10,032 nt of DNA from Escherichia coli (GCF_036507355.1 NZ_AP027880.1); one strand, 5' to 3'. Numbered from the stretch's first letter, positions 1 to 10,032 are shown. A program made the numbers and translations. Notes: generated by a model not told the origin, from the letters alone.

Positions 1-312
1 GACCAACAGGGATACAGCTCTGCCACTGCCGTGAGCGCGGACGGCAGCACGGTCGTGGGGGGGGCTGATTACGATCTCACGGCAGGCGGGACGGGCAGGC
101 ATGCATTTCGCTGGACCAGTGCGGGCGGCATGCAGGATTTGGGCGACTTTACGTCCGACCAACAGGGATCCAGCTCTGCCACTGCCGTGAGCGCGGATGG
201 CAGCGTGGTGGCGGGAATCGCAAGCAATGACGCAGGAGAAATGCGTGCATTTATTTACAAAGCGCCTCAGTCGCCAACAGACCCTAATCTACCGATCCAA
301 GACTACGAGAAT
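1..312 (+). repeat. One complete 156-bp HAF repeat unit (1..156) plus one degenerate unit (157..~312), the continuation of the tandem array at 9097..10032
   Basis: 1..156 is near-identical to the units at 9253 and 9409; the second unit diverges after about 60 bp into the linker region. Confidence 0.85.
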
Positions 313-1245
313 GTCCTCAAGTCGTTTCCTAAGTTGGCCGCCGACAAAGAGTTGGCTGCTGCGCAGCAGCAGCTAGGTATGCAGCGCTTGTTGACTTCGC
401 AATGTTCAGCAGGGCAAGCGGAGCAAAGCTGCTTGGTGGTCTCTGGCTCGTTGGATACGGCAGGCTCTGACGGCCCAATTGGTCGCCGTCAGCAAACAGC
501 GGGGACTGTCACACTAGGGCGAGGTCTTGATGAGCGCTGGACGGTGGGGGCAAGCTTGTCGCTGGCGCACTCGAGCTTGCACCACAACGCAGTAAATCCT
601 AAGAATGCTTATGGCGTAAGTGGCTGGGTGAACTACAGCGAGCATGGCTTGTCCGGTCTTGGCTGGCAGATGGATGCAGCCATTGGTTATGCGAAGAACA
701 AGAGCACCATCACCCGTGGTCAGGGCCTTGAGCATGTTCACCTGGTGCAGGGCACAAGCAATTTAGACACAGTGGCAGCTCGTATTGCCTTGGGGTTTGG
801 CATCCAGCAGCGTCATGGATGGACTTTGACGCCAGCAGTGTCTGTGACACAGCAAAACAGCAAGTTTGCAGCTTACAGTGAGTCGCCTTCAGCCTTTACT
901 GCGTCGTACGATAAATCGGAGCTTAAAACGACTGTGTTGGGAGTGGATCTGAGTGCCAAGAAGTCTTTGAGCGACAAGTCGCAGCTGCGTTTAGCGGTAG
1001 GCGTTGAGCAAGACCTTAAAACGGATCGTATGAAGCTGGCTGGCGTCTCTGATGTTCCAGGAGCGCAGCGATTTAACTTAGAGAGTGCTTTAGAGCGCAA
1101 GAAACTGCGTCCTTATGCCTCTGTGGGATACCGCTATCAAGTCAGTGCACAGGGGGCTGTGTTTGTGAACACAGGCGTGATGCGGGATATGTTCTCGAAC
1201 AAACCCAACGTGGGTGTGCAGGTCGGTTATAGCGCACGGTTTTAA
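1..1245 (+). CDS. HAF-repeat autotransporter, C-terminal part: last HAF repeats, linker and autotransporter beta-barrel translocator domain. The 5' end runs off the window start and is probably continuous with 9010..10032 on a circular molecule.
   Basis: Frame 1 is open from base 1 (track ORF 31..1245 is only the first in-frame GTG). The N-terminal part is the same 52-aa repeat seen at 9097..10032 (…GTGRHAFRWTSAGGMQDLGD…). The C-terminal ~280 aa has the alternating-hydrophobic pattern of an autotransporter beta domain and ends …VGVQVGYSARF-stop, the typical terminal aromatic signature. A terminator follows. Confidence 0.85.
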   Translation, partial: DQQGYSSATAVSADGSTVVGGADYDLTAGGTGRHAFRWTSAGGMQDLGDFTSDQQGSSSATAVSADGSVVAGIASNDAGEMRAFIYKAPQSPTDPNLPIQDYENVLKSFPKLAADKELAAAQQQLGMQRLLTSQCSAGQAEQSCLVVSGSLDTAGSDGPIGRRQQTAGTVTLGRGLDERWTVGASLSLAHSSLHHNAVNPKNAYGVSGWVNYSEHGLSGLGWQMDAAIGYAKNKSTITRGQGLEHVHLVQGTSNLDTVAARIALGFGIQQRHGWTLTPAVSVTQQNSKFAAYSESPSAFTASYDKSELKTTVLGVDLSAKKSLSDKSQLRLAVGVEQDLKTDRMKLAGVSDVPGAQRFNLESALERKKLRPYASVGYRYQVSAQGAVFVNTGVMRDMFSNKPNVGVQVGYSARF

Positions 1246-1306
1246 CGCGACATAGCGTTCAAACATTTCCTCAGCTCACGGTAAATCCTGCTTATCGATG
1301 GCAACA

Positions 1307-1332
1307 AAAAAGGCGCTCAAAGCGCCTTTTTT
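1307..1332. terminator. Rho-independent terminator, potentially bidirectional, downstream of the autotransporter gene
   Basis: A-run (1307..1312), GC stem ggcgc/gcgcc with 4-nt loop (1313..1326), then T6 (1327..1332). Confidence 0.7.
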
Positions 1333-1383
1333 GCGTCTGGTGCTACCATGCGAGCTACATGTATCTCAAAAGGAGTTGATGCC

Positions 1384-1527
1384 ATGTCTGTATCTCTTCG
1401 CCTACCCCCAGAACTGAACCAGCGTCTGAGCAACTTGGCCGAGCGTGAGCTGGAAGCGGTGCGTGCCGGTAAATCCAAGGCCGTGCCTTTGGAAGACGTT
1501 ATGAAGCAGTATGGCTTGGCAGATTGA
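1384..1527 (+). CDS. Ribbon-helix-helix type II antitoxin (RelB/ParD-like), 47 aa
   Basis: ATG at 1384 with AAGGAG about 9 nt upstream. N-terminus MSVSLRLPPELNQRLSNLAE is a classic RHH beta-strand plus helix. The stop overlaps the start of the downstream toxin ORF (ATGGCTTGGCAGATTGA), typical TA coupling. Confidence 0.7.
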   Translation: MSVSLRLPPELNQRLSNLAERELEAVRAGKSKAVPLEDVMKQYGLAD

Positions 1528-1711
1528 ACTGTCCGAAGGTGCTGTCAAAAACCTCAAGCAGCTCGACCACCAACACGCCCGACGCATCCTGAGCTTTTTG
1601 CACGGTCGCGTGGCGCAACTTGATGACCCGCGCAGCATTGGCGAGGCACTCAAAGGCTCCAAGCTGGGGGAGCTTTGGAAGTACTGCGTGGGGGACTACC
1701 GAATCATATGA
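1511..1711 (+). CDS. RelE/ParE-family toxin, apparently C-terminally truncated (66 aa; ends …WKYCVGDYRII-stop)
   Basis: MAWQIELSEGAVKNLKQLD…RRILSFL…DPRSIGEALKGSKLGELWKYCVGDYRII matches the N-terminal two-thirds of RelE/ParE toxins. The usual C-terminal strand with catalytic Arg/Tyr (…V.V.RVGHR…Y) is missing. The stop overlaps the ATG of the next ORF (cATATGAc). Confidence 0.6.
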   Translation: MAWQIELSEGAVKNLKQLDHQHARRILSFLHGRVAQLDDPRSIGEALKGSKLGELWKYCVGDYRII

Positions 1712-8599: not shown

Positions 8600-8670
8600 G
8601 CCGCCGCCTTTCCTTTGGTGTTGCCGTTGCGCCGCAGGCGCAGGGGTTCAGGGGCTTGCCCCTGACGCGC

Positions 8671-8705
8671 GTTTCTCGGCTTGCCGAGAAACAACTAAGC
8701 GCGCC
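8671..8705 (+). promoter_or_regulatory. oriT: perfect 10-bp inverted repeat GTTTCTCGGC-tt-GCCGAGAAAC followed by TAAGCGCGCC (nic region), RSF1010-like
   Basis: Matches the RSF1010 oriT architecture (GTTTCTC…GAGAAAC then TAAGTGCG^CCCT). Predicted nick near 8703/8704. A second hairpin lies at 8648..8665. Confidence 0.75.
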
Positions 8706-8791
8706 TTCTATGGAAGGAAGCATACAGCGCATGCACACGCGCTGTCACCATTTGCATAGAATGGTGCATCACGACCAAAGTGAGTAGCACC

Positions 8792-8906
8792 GATGACGCA
8801 AAACAAATGGCTCAATGAGCGGCTGGCATATATTCGTGGCCTCAAAGCTCCGAATGACCATCTGCTGACCTTAACAGTTGCAGGTGTTGCAGTTCAGATT
8901 TGAATC
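8792..8906 (+). CDS. Short ORF (38 aa), diverged paralog of the N-terminus of the 1708 ORF; possibly a remnant
   Basis: MTQNKWLNERLAYIRGLKAPNDHLLTL… versus MTQDKWLAERLAYLRGLKAPSDQQRLLL…; nucleotide differences are mostly synonymous third positions. Divergent from mobA across oriT. Confidence 0.35.
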
Positions 8907-9009
8907 CACCAAGATAGTCGTTGTCGAGCTTTGGGGCTTTGGGGCTTTGGTGGTAAAGCATTTTCTAAAGGCTCACAAACCACGGTTATCCAATTCACTG
9001 AGATACAAC

Positions 9010-10032
9010 ATGAAGTTTCGAGTCTTTTGCTTGGCAGCACTCCCCTGCTTTTCGGTTTCAGCGCAGTCTTTAGAAAATTTAGGGTCCTTGACGGCCGACC
9101 AACAGGGAGCCAGCTCTGCCACTGCCGTGAGCGCGGACGGCAGCACGGTCGTGGGGGAGGCTGCTTACGATCTCACGGCAGGCGGGACGGGCAGGCATGC
9201 ATTTCGCTGGACCAGTGCGGGCGGCATGCAGGACTTGGGCGACTTGACGGCCAACCAACAGGGATACAGCTCTGCCACTGCCGTGAGCGCGGACGGCAGC
9301 ACGGTCGTGGGGGGGGCTGCTTACGATCGCACGGCAGGCGGGACGGGCAGGCATGCATTTCGCTGGACCAGTGCGGGCGGCATGCAGGACTTGGGCGACT
9401 TGACGGCCAACCAACAGGGATACAGCTCTGCCACTGCCGTGAGCGCGGACGGCAGCACGGTCGTGGGGGGGGCTGATTACGATCGCACGGCAGGCGGGAC
9501 GGGCAGGCATGCATTTCGCTGGACCAGTGCGGGCGGCATGCAGGACTTGGGCGACTTGACGGCCGACCAACAGGGAGCCAGCTCTGCCTATGCCGTGAGC
9601 GCGGACGGCAGCACGGTCGTGGGGGGGGCTAATTACGATCGCACGGCAGGCGGGACGGACTATCATGCATTTCGCTGGACCAGTGCGGGCGGCATGCAGG
9701 ACTTGGGCGACTTGACGGCCAACCAACAGGGATACAGCCATGCCACTGCCGTGAGCGCGGACGGCAGCACGGTCGTGGGGTGGGCTAATTACGATCTCAC
9801 GGCAGGCGGGACGGGCAGGCATGCATTTCGCTGGACCAGTGCGGGCGGCATGCAGGACTTGGGCGACTTGACGGCCGACCAACAGGGAGCCAGCTCTGCC
9901 TATGCCGTGAGCGCGGACGGCAGCACGGTCGTGGGGTGGGCTAATTACGATCGCACGGCAGGCGGGACGGACTATCATGCATTTCGCTGGACCAGTGCGG
10001 GCGGCATGCAGGACTTGGGCGACTTGACGGCC
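9010..10032 (+). CDS. HAF-repeat autotransporter, N-terminal part: Sec signal peptide plus six 52-aa HAF repeats. The 3' end runs off the window and is probably continuous with 1..1245.
   Basis: ATG at 9010 in frame 1. MKFRVFCLAALPCFSVSAQS is a typical signal peptide (A-Q-S cleavage motif). From 9097 six 156-bp units each encode …SATAVSADGSTVVG…YD.TAGGTGRHAFRWTSAGGMQDLGDLTA. The open frame reaches the last base of the window, exactly at a unit boundary. Confidence 0.85.
   Translation, partial: MKFRVFCLAALPCFSVSAQSLENLGSLTADQQGASSATAVSADGSTVVGEAAYDLTAGGTGRHAFRWTSAGGMQDLGDLTANQQGYSSATAVSADGSTVVGGAAYDRTAGGTGRHAFRWTSAGGMQDLGDLTANQQGYSSATAVSADGSTVVGGADYDRTAGGTGRHAFRWTSAGGMQDLGDLTADQQGASSAYAVSADGSTVVGGANYDRTAGGTDYHAFRWTSAGGMQDLGDLTANQQGYSHATAVSADGSTVVGWANYDLTAGGTGRHAFRWTSAGGMQDLGDLTADQQGASSAYAVSADGSTVVGWANYDRTAGGTDYHAFRWTSAGGMQDLGDLTA
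9097..10032 (+). repeat. Tandem array of six 156-bp coding repeats (units start at 9097, 9253, 9409, 9565, 9721, 9877), over 95% identical
   Basis: Direct inspection; period 156 bp (52 codons). The array ends exactly at base 10032 and resumes at base 1. Confidence 0.95.

What the first reader, a model, noticed from the sequence alone, without database searches (positions are those of the whole stretch)
1..10032. Window behaves like a complete circular ~10 kb plasmid: ends join in phase inside one gene
The last repeat unit ends exactly at base 10032 and base 1 starts a new unit in the same frame (frame 1). Joining end to start gives an uninterrupted ORF, 9010..10032 plus 1..1245, encoding a ~755-aa protein with signal peptide, repeats and beta-barrel in the correct order. 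Every other gene is plasmid backbone (two rep genes, par, res, mob/oriT, TA). A chromosomal insertion would instead place the 5' gene half upstream and the 3' half downstream. The true repeat copy number may be collapsed or expanded by assembly.
Basis: partly seen in the sequence, partly recalled or inferred. Interest (0 to 1): 0.6.

Follow-up and report, generated by a model that had tools for sequence, protein, structure and literature searches.

The report
Circular plasmid cut inside autotransporter gene
The window is one complete copy of a small (~10 kb) circular E. coli plasmid whose database record happens to be opened in the middle of a repeat-rich surface-protein gene; this is a correct reading but an ordinary one, because near-identical plasmids are already deposited.

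Summary
Confirmed, and ordinary. Joining 9010..10032 to 1..1245 gives an uninterrupted 755-aa ORF, and the 156-nt repeat period runs across the join without a slip.

Other public records carry the same DNA opened at different points:
- a 10,032-nt E. coli contig broken at window 2153/2154 (one SNP), with the gene intact;
- the complete circular E. coli plasmid p2017.17.01CC_2, broken at 9173/9174;
- a contig with a 295-nt terminal overlap;
- a MEGAHIT contig with a 141-nt overlap;
- head-to-tail metagenome scaffolds.

No copy lies on any of 5,426 E. coli chromosomes.

The gene encodes a classical autotransporter: signal peptide, eight HAF/LGxL repeats modelled as an eight-bladed beta-propeller, a helix and a beta-barrel. 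Eight repeats is also the norm among its relatives, so the array is probably not collapsed. One isolate has a ninth, frameshifted unit.

The rest is mosaic plasmid backbone: RepA_C, Rep_3, ParA/RHH, resolvase, EexN, MobA/oriT, traD remnants, and relB with a truncated relE.

"Unit ends exactly at 10032" depends on where a unit is said to start. The toxin-antitoxin pair is a remnant.

The parts
9010..10032 (+). 5' part of the autotransporter gene: start codon, signal peptide (about aa 1-18, 9010-9063) and repeat units 1 to 7 (unit 7 begins at 10023). It continues at base 1.
   Evidence: Translation; units; the homologue P0136 starts with the same MKFRVFCLAALPCFSVSAQS.
1..1245 (+). 3' part of the same gene: rest of unit 7 (1-146), degenerate unit 8 (147-302), linker helix (about 304-396), beta-barrel (about 427-1239) and stop codon at 1243-1245. 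The protein ends ...YSARF.
9087..10032 (+). Tandem array of 156-nt (52-aa) HAF/LGxL repeat units. It runs on to base 302 across the record origin: 7 near-identical units plus 1 degenerate unit.
   Evidence: TRF; unit table; 8 HAF_rpt stretches; 8 LGx[L/F] motifs.
1305..1333 (.). Perfect 13-bp hairpin flanked by an A-run and a T-run. It is a likely bidirectional intrinsic terminator after the autotransporter gene, and marks the end of homology with the diverged allele L015.
   Evidence: fold -20.4 kcal/mol, z -4.15; L015 homology ends at 1333.
1384..1527 (+). relB-like antitoxin gene (47 aa).
   Evidence: NF048017, E 2e-11, 43.8 bits, below the cut-off of 50.
1511..1711 (+). Truncated relE/parE-family toxin gene (66 aa; matches model positions 1-67 of 88). 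It is cut off where traD begins.
   Evidence: TIGR02385 E 0.11; precomputed ParE_toxin (weak); PGAP marks the equivalent as a pseudogene missing its C-terminus; sequence.
1708..1947 (+). traD-like gene with internal deletions (79 aa).
   Evidence: 95-98% identical in three pieces to traD of Paracoccus plasmid III; L009 carries a 120-aa TraD (PF06412) at this place.
2023..2078 (+). 56-nt perfect direct repeat, copy 1. Its partner is at 6088-6143. The pair brackets the RepA_C-par-res-eex module.
   Evidence: Self-BLAST 100%; both copies match Paracoccus pIII 499-592.
2176..2284 (.). Iteron-like repeats (GGGGGTCCGATTTAACG, four copies in 2176-2284, with a related GGGGGGCCGATCTAACG at 2399-2415) just downstream of repA. 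This is the probable origin for RepA_C.
   Evidence: TRF; sequence. The function is inferred.
2447..3442 (-). repA (331 aa, RepA_C family).
   Evidence: Precomputed PF04796; PGAP 'replication protein RepA'; 81-89% DNA identity to repA of Agrobacterium, Pseudomonas and Achromobacter plasmids.
3470..3727 (-). Ribbon-helix-helix protein (85 aa), the likely partition adaptor or regulator.
   Evidence: PF23807 RHH_10 (weak); PGAP 'ribbon-helix-helix protein'.
3729..4379 (-). parA partition ATPase (216 aa).
   Evidence: NF041546, E 8e-48, 162.6 bits, below the equivalog cut-off of 180.
4558..5190 (-). Serine recombinase/resolvase (210 aa).
   Evidence: PF00239 + PF02796; NCBIfam resolvase-type hits.
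5202..5456 (-). EexN-family lipoprotein (84 aa, entry-exclusion type).
   Evidence: NF033894, 70.2 bits against a cut-off of 33.
6088..6143 (+). 56-nt perfect direct repeat, copy 2.
6189..6986 (+). Rep_3-family replication initiator (265 aa as called elsewhere; the ORF is open from 6117).
   Evidence: PF01051 + PF21205; RepM/RepE models E 1e-42 and 4e-20; 94% DNA identity to rep of Paracoccus pIII.
7079..8599 (-). mobA relaxase (506 aa, MobA/MobL).
   Evidence: PF03389; MobQ model E 7.5e-24, 84.6 bits, below the cut-off of 200.
8648..8707 (+). oriT-like region: inverted repeats 8648-8665 and 8671-8692, followed by TAAGCGCGCCTT (8696-8707).
   Evidence: The motif alone is not significant (3 found, 1.07 expected). 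The assignment rests on position next to mobA and on resemblance to the RSF1010-type nick region as I recall it; this is an inference.
8793..8903 (+). traD' remnant. The first ~59 nt are homologous to traD; the ORF then runs into unrelated sequence (36 aa).
   Evidence: Homology to pIII ends at window 8851; 48 of 68 nt identical to the traD start at 1708.

Best explanation
The window is one full turn of a ~10.0-kb circular plasmid found in E. coli isolates and in pig/poultry gut metagenomes. It was written out as a linear record with the arbitrary origin placed inside the tandem-repeat region of one gene. On the real molecule, 9010..10032 and 1..1245 are contiguous.

Together they encode a 755-aa classical (type Va) autotransporter. 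A Sec signal peptide takes the protein to the periplasm. The C-terminal 12-strand-type barrel, ending in ...YSARF, is inserted by BAM. The helix at aa 443-473 sits in the pore. The passenger is displayed on the cell surface: eight 52-aa HAF/LGxL repeats modelled as an eight-bladed beta-propeller. By analogy with Xylella XatA, it most probably acts as an adhesin or autoaggregation factor.

The plasmid is a mosaic of three parts.
- A small rep_3-mobA-oriT-traD core, like Paracoccus plasmid III.
- A RepA_C-RHH-ParA-resolvase-EexN module, bracketed by 56-nt perfect direct repeats.
- A lower-GC 2.9-kb cargo (autotransporter, relB, truncated relE) that sits between a traD remnant and traD. This cargo lies across the record origin.

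Shown here: sequence continuity, circular permutation among records, domain architecture and mosaic boundaries. Inferred: secretion, propeller function, origin and oriT activity, mobilisation.
For: - ORF and register are continuous across the join.
- L008 is a rotation of the window with one SNP, and the join lies inside it.
- NZ_AP027824.1 is deposited as circular, with a different break point.
- L006 has a 295-nt exact terminal overlap, and L012 a 141-nt overlap.
- L004 and L005 are head-to-tail scaffolds, and one piece runs from window 9959 through the join to 5000.
- L015, a 92%-identical allele in an unrelated context, is colinear with window 8998 -> join -> 1333 with only 3 gaps, and encodes 757 aa with 8 repeats.
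- No chromosomal copy exists in 5,426 E. coli genomes.
- A 334-aa product starting MRAFIYK..., from a 10,032-nt E. coli plasmid record (BED24739.1), is what an annotator would call on a record opened as the window is.
- In related plasmids traD (window 1708...) and mobA (...8708) are neighbours, so the two ends of the window belong together.
- Architecture.
- Full-length homologues of 700-750 aa have an 8-repeat consensus.
Against: - No reads, coverage or assembly graph could be examined, so physical circularity and copy number rest on assembled records. Several of these also break inside the array: L001 at 9173/9174, which is the start of the longest exact repeat (146 nt), and L006, L009, L010 and L011.
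- p2017.17.01CC_2 has a ninth unit. Its insertion point cannot be distinguished from the window's join, because it lies between units F and G, 10 nt away. A unit lost at circularisation therefore cannot be formally excluded for the window. Against this, L008 carries the same 8 units with the array internal.
- I could not retrieve the window's own record.
- MOB-suite types the sister plasmid as non-mobilizable.
Confidence: 0.95

Rival explanations
1. The molecule is circular but the array is mis-sized in this record. The true plasmid would carry nine or more units, as in p2017.17.01CC_2, and one unit would have been lost when the assembler closed the circle in the repeat.
For: L001 has units A I C D E F J G H against the window's A B C D E F G H. 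The extra unit J lies at the F/G boundary, within 10 nt of the window's join, and shares its first ~70 nt with G. The longest exact repeat is 146 nt, which is hard for 150-nt reads.
Against: L008 has the identical 8-unit array inside the contig, with its ends 2 kb away. The L006 circle also has 8 units. The diverged allele L015 (757 aa) and the 50-sequence family consensus have 8 repeats. Unit J carries a 5-nt loss in a G-run that frameshifts the gene into two CDS, so L001 is the deviant version, whether as a mutant or an assembly error.
Confidence: 0.08
2. The window is a linear draft contig that merely stops in a repeat at both ends. The in-phase join would be an accident or an assembler artefact, and unknown sequence would lie between the two gene halves.
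For: Many short-read contigs of this element do end inside the array (L009, L010, L011).
Against: The register is kept across the join, which has a 1 in 156 chance if accidental. The join is internal in L008, L001 and L004, and in the homologue L015. The joined protein has the normal length and architecture for its family.
Confidence: 0.02
3. It is a chromosomally integrated or tandemly multimerised element rather than a free monomeric plasmid.
For: Metagenome scaffolds L004 and L005 show 1.5 to 3 head-to-tail copies.
Against: Those scaffolds contain 100-N gaps in the array and nothing but plasmid sequence, which is a typical assembler treatment of a circle. There are 0 chromosomal places in 5,426 complete E. 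coli genomes. Isolate contigs are all 10.3 kb or shorter.
Confidence: 0.02

Closest known systems
E. coli plasmid p2017.17.01CC_2 (NZ_AP027824.1, 10,103 bp, circular, Viet Nam human faeces). The error-ridden sibling p2017.12.01CC_4 (AP027811.1) belongs with it.
   Same: 99.9% identical backbone with the same genes in the same order, and the same autotransporter gene lying across the record origin.
   Different: It has one extra repeat unit of 151 nt that is frameshifting, so the gene is split into 322-aa and 423-aa CDS. It has an 81-nt in-frame deletion in rep_3 (window ~6247-6327). Its record origin is at window 9173/9174.
E. coli draft contig AATLNC010000078.1 (GCA_012892915.1), 10,032 nt.
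   Same: The same molecule: a rotation of the window's reverse complement, with one SNP (window 169, Ser->Ala).
   Different: It is opened at window 2153/2154, so the gene is intact there. It is annotated as a 796-aa 'hypothetical protein' from an upstream start.
XatA/XatB of Xylella fastidiosa (AT-1 autotransporters with ~50-aa LGxL tandem repeats; PMC3426408).
   Same: [quoted passage not shown] XatA mediates autoaggregation and biofilm formation and confers these traits on E. coli.
   Different: XatA is described with six repeats and is chromosomal. Here there are eight repeats and the gene is plasmid-borne. Direct sequence homology to XatA was not tested. The paper lists a Pseudomonas fluorescens Pf-5 homologue, and a P. 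protegens protein is 48% identical to the window's protein, but I did not show these are the same protein.
HAF-repeat autotransporters of Burkholderiales and Pseudomonas (Castellaniella ginsengisoli WP_343836335.1, Bordetella avium, Comamonas spp.).
   Same: 84%, 67% and 55-60% identical respectively over the full length, with the same architecture and sizes of 703-747 aa.
   Different: Several of these lie on very long contigs and are presumably chromosomal (for example the Bordetella avium protein on a 3.8-Mb contig); the Castellaniella protein is on a 2.7-kb contig of unknown context. The Castellaniella protein is one repeat shorter (703 aa).
Paracoccus aminovorans JCM7685 plasmid III (NZ_LN832561.1, 4,158 bp, MOBQ).
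   Same: The rep_3, mobA, oriT and traD core is 86-98% identical, and it carries one copy of the 56-nt sequence that is duplicated in the window.
   Different: It lacks the RepA_C-par-res-eex module and the autotransporter/relBE cargo, and its traD is intact.

Membership tests
Complete circular plasmid | The same sequence is recovered as circular permutations, or with terminal overlaps, in other assemblies. | tested here: met
   L008 rotation; L001 with a different origin; L006 with a 295-nt overlap; L012 with a 141-nt overlap; tandem scaffolds.
Complete circular plasmid | It carries its own replication initiator(s) and no chromosomal flanks. | tested here: met
   RepA_C and Rep_3 genes; 0 of 53 places on chromosomes.
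Complete circular plasmid | Physical circularity shown by reads spanning the join, coverage, or exonuclease resistance. | not testable with these tools
   No reads or assembly graph were available.
Classical (type Va, AT-1) autotransporter | C-terminal autotransporter beta-barrel with a preceding pore helix. | tested here: met
Classical (type Va, AT-1) autotransporter | N-terminal Sec signal peptide and a C-terminal aromatic residue. | tested here: met
   MKFRVFCLAALPCFSVSA|QS and the terminal ...YSARF were read from the translation. No signal-peptide predictor was run. Residues 1-19 have low pLDDT, as signal peptides usually do.
Classical (type Va, AT-1) autotransporter | The passenger is actually exported to the cell surface. 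| not testable with these tools
   This needs an experiment.
HAF repeat family (TIGR02913) | Repeats scoring above the curated cut-off. | tested here: met
   166 bits against a cut-off of 22.65, in 8 stretches.
Xat family (Xylella XatA/XatB) | [quoted passage not shown] | tested here: met
Xat family (Xylella XatA/XatB) | Sequence homology to XatA, and a role in autoaggregation or biofilm formation. | not tested
   No XatA sequence was at hand. Function is known only from PMC3426408.
MOBQ mobilizable plasmid | MOBQ relaxase with a cognate oriT. | tested here: inconclusive
   MobA/MobL domain present. The MobQ model scores 84.6 bits, below the cut-off of 200. Relatives with a 93%-identical 5' mobA are typed MOBQ, but MOB-suite types the sister plasmid as non-mobilizable. 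An inverted repeat plus a nick-like motif is present, but the motif is not significant on its own.
Type II RelBE toxin-antitoxin system | An intact toxin and antitoxin pair. | tested here: not met
   The antitoxin scores 43.8 bits, below the cut-off of 50. The toxin is 66 aa and covers model positions 1-67 of 88 (E 0.11). PGAP marks it as a pseudogene. It is cut at the traD junction.

The most novel reading that the evidence does not exclude
A small two-replicon plasmid with a relaxase gene has carried an XatA-like beta-propeller autotransporter adhesin from Burkholderiales (closest relative in Castellaniella, 84% identity) into gut E. coli. Its nearly identical 156-nt blade-coding units may recombine, changing blade number (7, 8 or 9) or frameshifting the gene. 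That would act as a plasmid-borne on/off or size-variation switch for a surface adhesin.
Probability: 0.15. Interest if true: 0.4.

Novelty: already known. Interest (0 to 1): 0.12.

Why it matters
It matters mainly for annotation. When a circular record is opened inside a gene, annotators miss or truncate that gene. Here a 334-aa fragment was called on the 10,032-nt plasmid record, and two CDS on the sister plasmid, where the real product is a 755-aa surface protein. Reading the record as a circle restores the only non-backbone cargo gene of this plasmid, a probable adhesin. Biologically it is a modest example of a plasmid from high-GC proteobacteria, with two replication genes and a relaxase, circulating in E. 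coli with a surface-protein cargo. It does not open a new question.

Tried and rejected
- I looked for the window's own record. Neither PLSDB nor the RefSeq complete E. coli set holds an exact 10,032-nt match. The exact look-up of BED24739.1 (P0133) found no contig, so the accession remains unknown.
- The exact look-up of the Bordetella avium homologue also failed.
- A literature search for the strain name found nothing. 'HAF repeat' plus 'autotransporter' gave only one incidental paper.
- Rfam (gathering threshold) and tRNA scans of the window were empty, so the 'ColRNAI' replicon label that MOB-suite gives the sister plasmid has no RNA I support here.
- The consensus terminator scan missed the obvious hairpin at 1305-1333, which I confirmed by repeat search and folding instead.
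- The promoter scan gave nothing useful upstream of the autotransporter gene.
- The 796-aa upstream start used in L008 was rejected in favour of ATG 9010. The signal peptide follows that ATG directly, and the homologue P0136 starts there.
- A chromosomal insertion and a plain linear contig were considered and rejected (see the rival explanations).

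
Full report
**Observation**

The window's listed ORFs include a 404-aa ORF at 31..1245, and nothing that runs off the 3' end, because such ORFs are not listed. Translating frame 1 shows an open frame from ATG 9010 to the last base, and an open frame from base 1 to the stop at 1243-1245. Joined, they give a 2,268-nt ORF of 755 codons with no internal stop.

TRF finds a 156-nt tandem array at 9087..10032 (6.1 copies, 94% matches). Cutting the circularised sequence into 156-nt units shows that the unit beginning at 10023 closes at base 146. 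It differs at only 4 positions from a reference unit. A degenerate eighth unit follows at 147..302. Period and frame are therefore both kept across the join. For two unrelated ends lying in such an array, the register alone would match 1 time in 156. The window has no terminal overlap.

**Is the join real?**

Looking up where the window's RepA protein is encoded returned many public contigs of the same element.

- L008 (GCA_012892915.1, AATLNC010000078.1; its products are named E. coli) is also exactly 10,032 nt. Window 1..2153 matches L008 2153..1, and window 2154..10032 matches L008 10032..2154. There is a single mismatch, at window 169. The two records are rotations of one circle. Each contains the other's ends as internal, contiguous sequence, and in L008 the gene is called intact (796 aa from an upstream start).
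- NZ_AP027824.1 (E. coli p2017.17.01CC_2, 10,103 nt, deposited as circular and complete) is 99.9% identical and is opened at window 9173/9174. RefSeq annotates a CDS running across its origin.
- L006 has an exact 295-nt terminal overlap, giving a 10,033-nt circle.
- L012, a k141 MEGAHIT contig, carries window 5596-5736 at both ends.
- Pig/poultry metagenome scaffolds L004 and L005 hold 1.5 to 3 head-to-tail copies. One piece runs from window 9959 through the join to 5000.
- L015 is a 92%-identical allele on a metagenome contig with unrelated flanks. It is colinear with window 8998 -> 10032/1 -> 1333 with only three gaps, and encodes 757 aa.
- Across 5,426 complete E. coli genomes, every one of 53 matching places is on a plasmid.
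- In related small plasmids, the traD sequence at window 1708... and the mobA/oriT sequence at ...8851 are neighbours. This again ties the two ends of the window together.

A cluster look-up shows a 334-aa protein beginning MRAFIYK... (BED24739.1, "plasmid", E. coli, contig 10,032 nt). That is what an annotator would call from the truncated 3' half on a record opened like the window. The window is therefore very probably that deposited plasmid record. Its locus-tag and accession series match those of NZ_AP027824.1 and AP027811.1, which suggests the same project. I could not retrieve it to confirm.

**Copy number**

The window and L008 have units A B C D E F G H. The L006 circle also has eight units, with a few substitutions. 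L001 has nine units: A I C D E F J G H. The extra unit J is 151 nt. A 5-nt loss in a G-run frameshifts the gene, which RefSeq accordingly splits into 322-aa and 423-aa CDS.

J sits at the F/G boundary, 10 nt from the window's join, and shares its first ~70 nt with G. Taken alone, the window could therefore have lost a unit at circularisation. Several results argue against this:

- L008 has the same eight units with the array far from its contig ends.
- The diverged allele L015 has eight repeats.
- A 50-sequence alignment of full-length homologues has an eight-repeat consensus.
- The longest exact repeat in the array is 146 nt, which is bridgeable by 250-nt reads.

I conclude that eight is the native number, and that the nine-unit version is a mutant or an assembly error.

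**What the gene encodes**

- NCBIfam finds eight HAF repeats (TIGR02913, 166 bits against a cut-off of 22.65).
- Pfam finds the Autotransporter beta-domain at aa 499-729.
- An AlphaFold2 model built on the 50-sequence alignment is confident (mean pLDDT 90.3). It shows eight four-stranded blades (aa 20-428), a long helix (443-473) and a beta-barrel (484-754).
- Each unit carries an LGx[L/F] motif.

The characterised relative in kind is Xylella XatA. It is an AT-1 autotransporter whose passenger consists of ~50-aa LGxL repeats predicted to form a propeller. It drives autoaggregation and biofilm formation, and confers those traits on E. coli (PMC3426408). I did not test direct homology to XatA.

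The closest sequence relatives are HAF-repeat autotransporters of Castellaniella (84%, 703 aa), Bordetella avium (67%), Comamonas and Pseudomonas. In PLSDB the gene occurs only on the two Vietnamese E. coli plasmids.

**The rest of the plasmid**

The backbone genes are:

- RepA_C repA (2447-3442, minus strand), with iteron-like repeats at 2176-2284;
- RHH protein (3470-3727, minus strand);
- ParA (3729-4379, minus strand);
- serine resolvase (4558-5190, minus strand);
- EexN-family lipoprotein (5202-5456, minus strand);
- Rep_3 initiator (6189-6986, plus strand);
- MobA/MobL relaxase (7079-8599, minus strand);
- an oriT-like region, made of inverted repeats plus TAAGCGCGCCTT, at 8648-8707.

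The structure is a mosaic. A core 86-98% identical to the 4.2-kb Paracoccus plasmid III (rep_3, mobA, oriT, traD) is interrupted twice.

- First, the RepA_C-par-res-eex module (2079-6087) is bracketed by 56-nt perfect direct repeats. It is syntenic with Agrobacterium pAt2.
- Second, a 2,888-nt cargo (8852 -> 1707) lies between a 59-nt traD 5' remnant and a second traD start. The cargo has 52.8% GC outside the array, against 64.9% for the backbone. Its right edge truncates relE.

The TA pair is therefore a remnant, not an intact system.

**Verdict**

The finding amounts to recognising that a circular plasmid record is opened inside a gene, and near-identical plasmids are already public. The autotransporter belongs to a known, if little studied, family. 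Interest is low.

The only mildly novel angle is a plasmid-borne propeller autotransporter whose homogenised repeats vary in number between isolates. This angle is unproven.

Noticed in passing
window 2023-2078 and 6088-6143: A 56-nt perfect direct repeat brackets the 4-kb RepA_C-RHH-ParA-resolvase-EexN module. The same sequence occurs once in the 4.2-kb Paracoccus plasmid III, upstream of rep_3. This looks like the scar of a cointegration or insertion, and would allow the module to be lost by recombination.
   Followed up: partly
window 4470-4526 and 5576-5631: A 57-nt inverted repeat (98% identical) flanks the resolvase and EexN lipoprotein genes. It could mark res sites, an invertible segment or a small mobile unit. 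I did not investigate it.
   Followed up: no
window 8793-8851 versus 1708-1775: There are two different traD 5' ends (48 of 68 nt identical) on either side of the autotransporter/relBE cargo, and relE is cut exactly where the second traD begins. The cargo seems to have arrived by recombination between two related MOBQ-type plasmids rather than by transposition. No target duplication or transposase is present.
   Followed up: partly
L001 (NZ_AP027824.1), equivalent to window ~6247-6327: The sister plasmid has an 81-nt in-frame deletion in the 5' part of the Rep_3 gene, between short direct repeats. All other copies examined have the window's version.
   Followed up: yes
window 9087-10032 + 1-146; L015 397-1578: Repeat units within one allele are more alike (~90% aa identity) than corresponding units between the two alleles (75-90%, with no positional correspondence). 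This indicates concerted evolution of the blade-coding units.
   Followed up: partly
L002 (AP027811.1, 10,486 nt): This deposited 'complete' sibling plasmid is only ~88-96% identical to the window, with 115 gap openings in the longest aligned piece alone. All 17 of its CDS are short 'hypothetical proteins'. It looks like an unpolished long-read assembly rather than a divergent plasmid.
   Followed up: partly
L001 typing (PLSDB/MOB-suite): The sister plasmid is typed 'non-mobilizable, ColRNAI_rep_cluster_1998', although it carries a MobA/MobL relaxase and two protein-initiator replicons. Rfam finds no RNA I in the window. The automated typing appears wrong.
   Followed up: partly
L004, L005, L009 (ENA MUNK18 samples): The same plasmid, 99.6-99.9% identical, turns up in ENA metagenome assemblies labelled MUNK18, which I take (from memory, unchecked) to be pig and poultry faecal metagenomes. 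The RepA protein is indexed in 110 blocks of the collection. The plasmid is high-GC (63%) for an E. coli plasmid, and its backbone relatives are in Paracoccus, Agrobacterium, Xanthomonas and Comamonas. Its main natural host may therefore not be E. coli.
   Followed up: no
window 1818-1908; L009 7428-7708: traD in the window carries internal deletions relative to L009 (120-aa TraD) and to Paracoccus pIII. Isolates therefore differ in this accessory transfer gene.
   Followed up: partly
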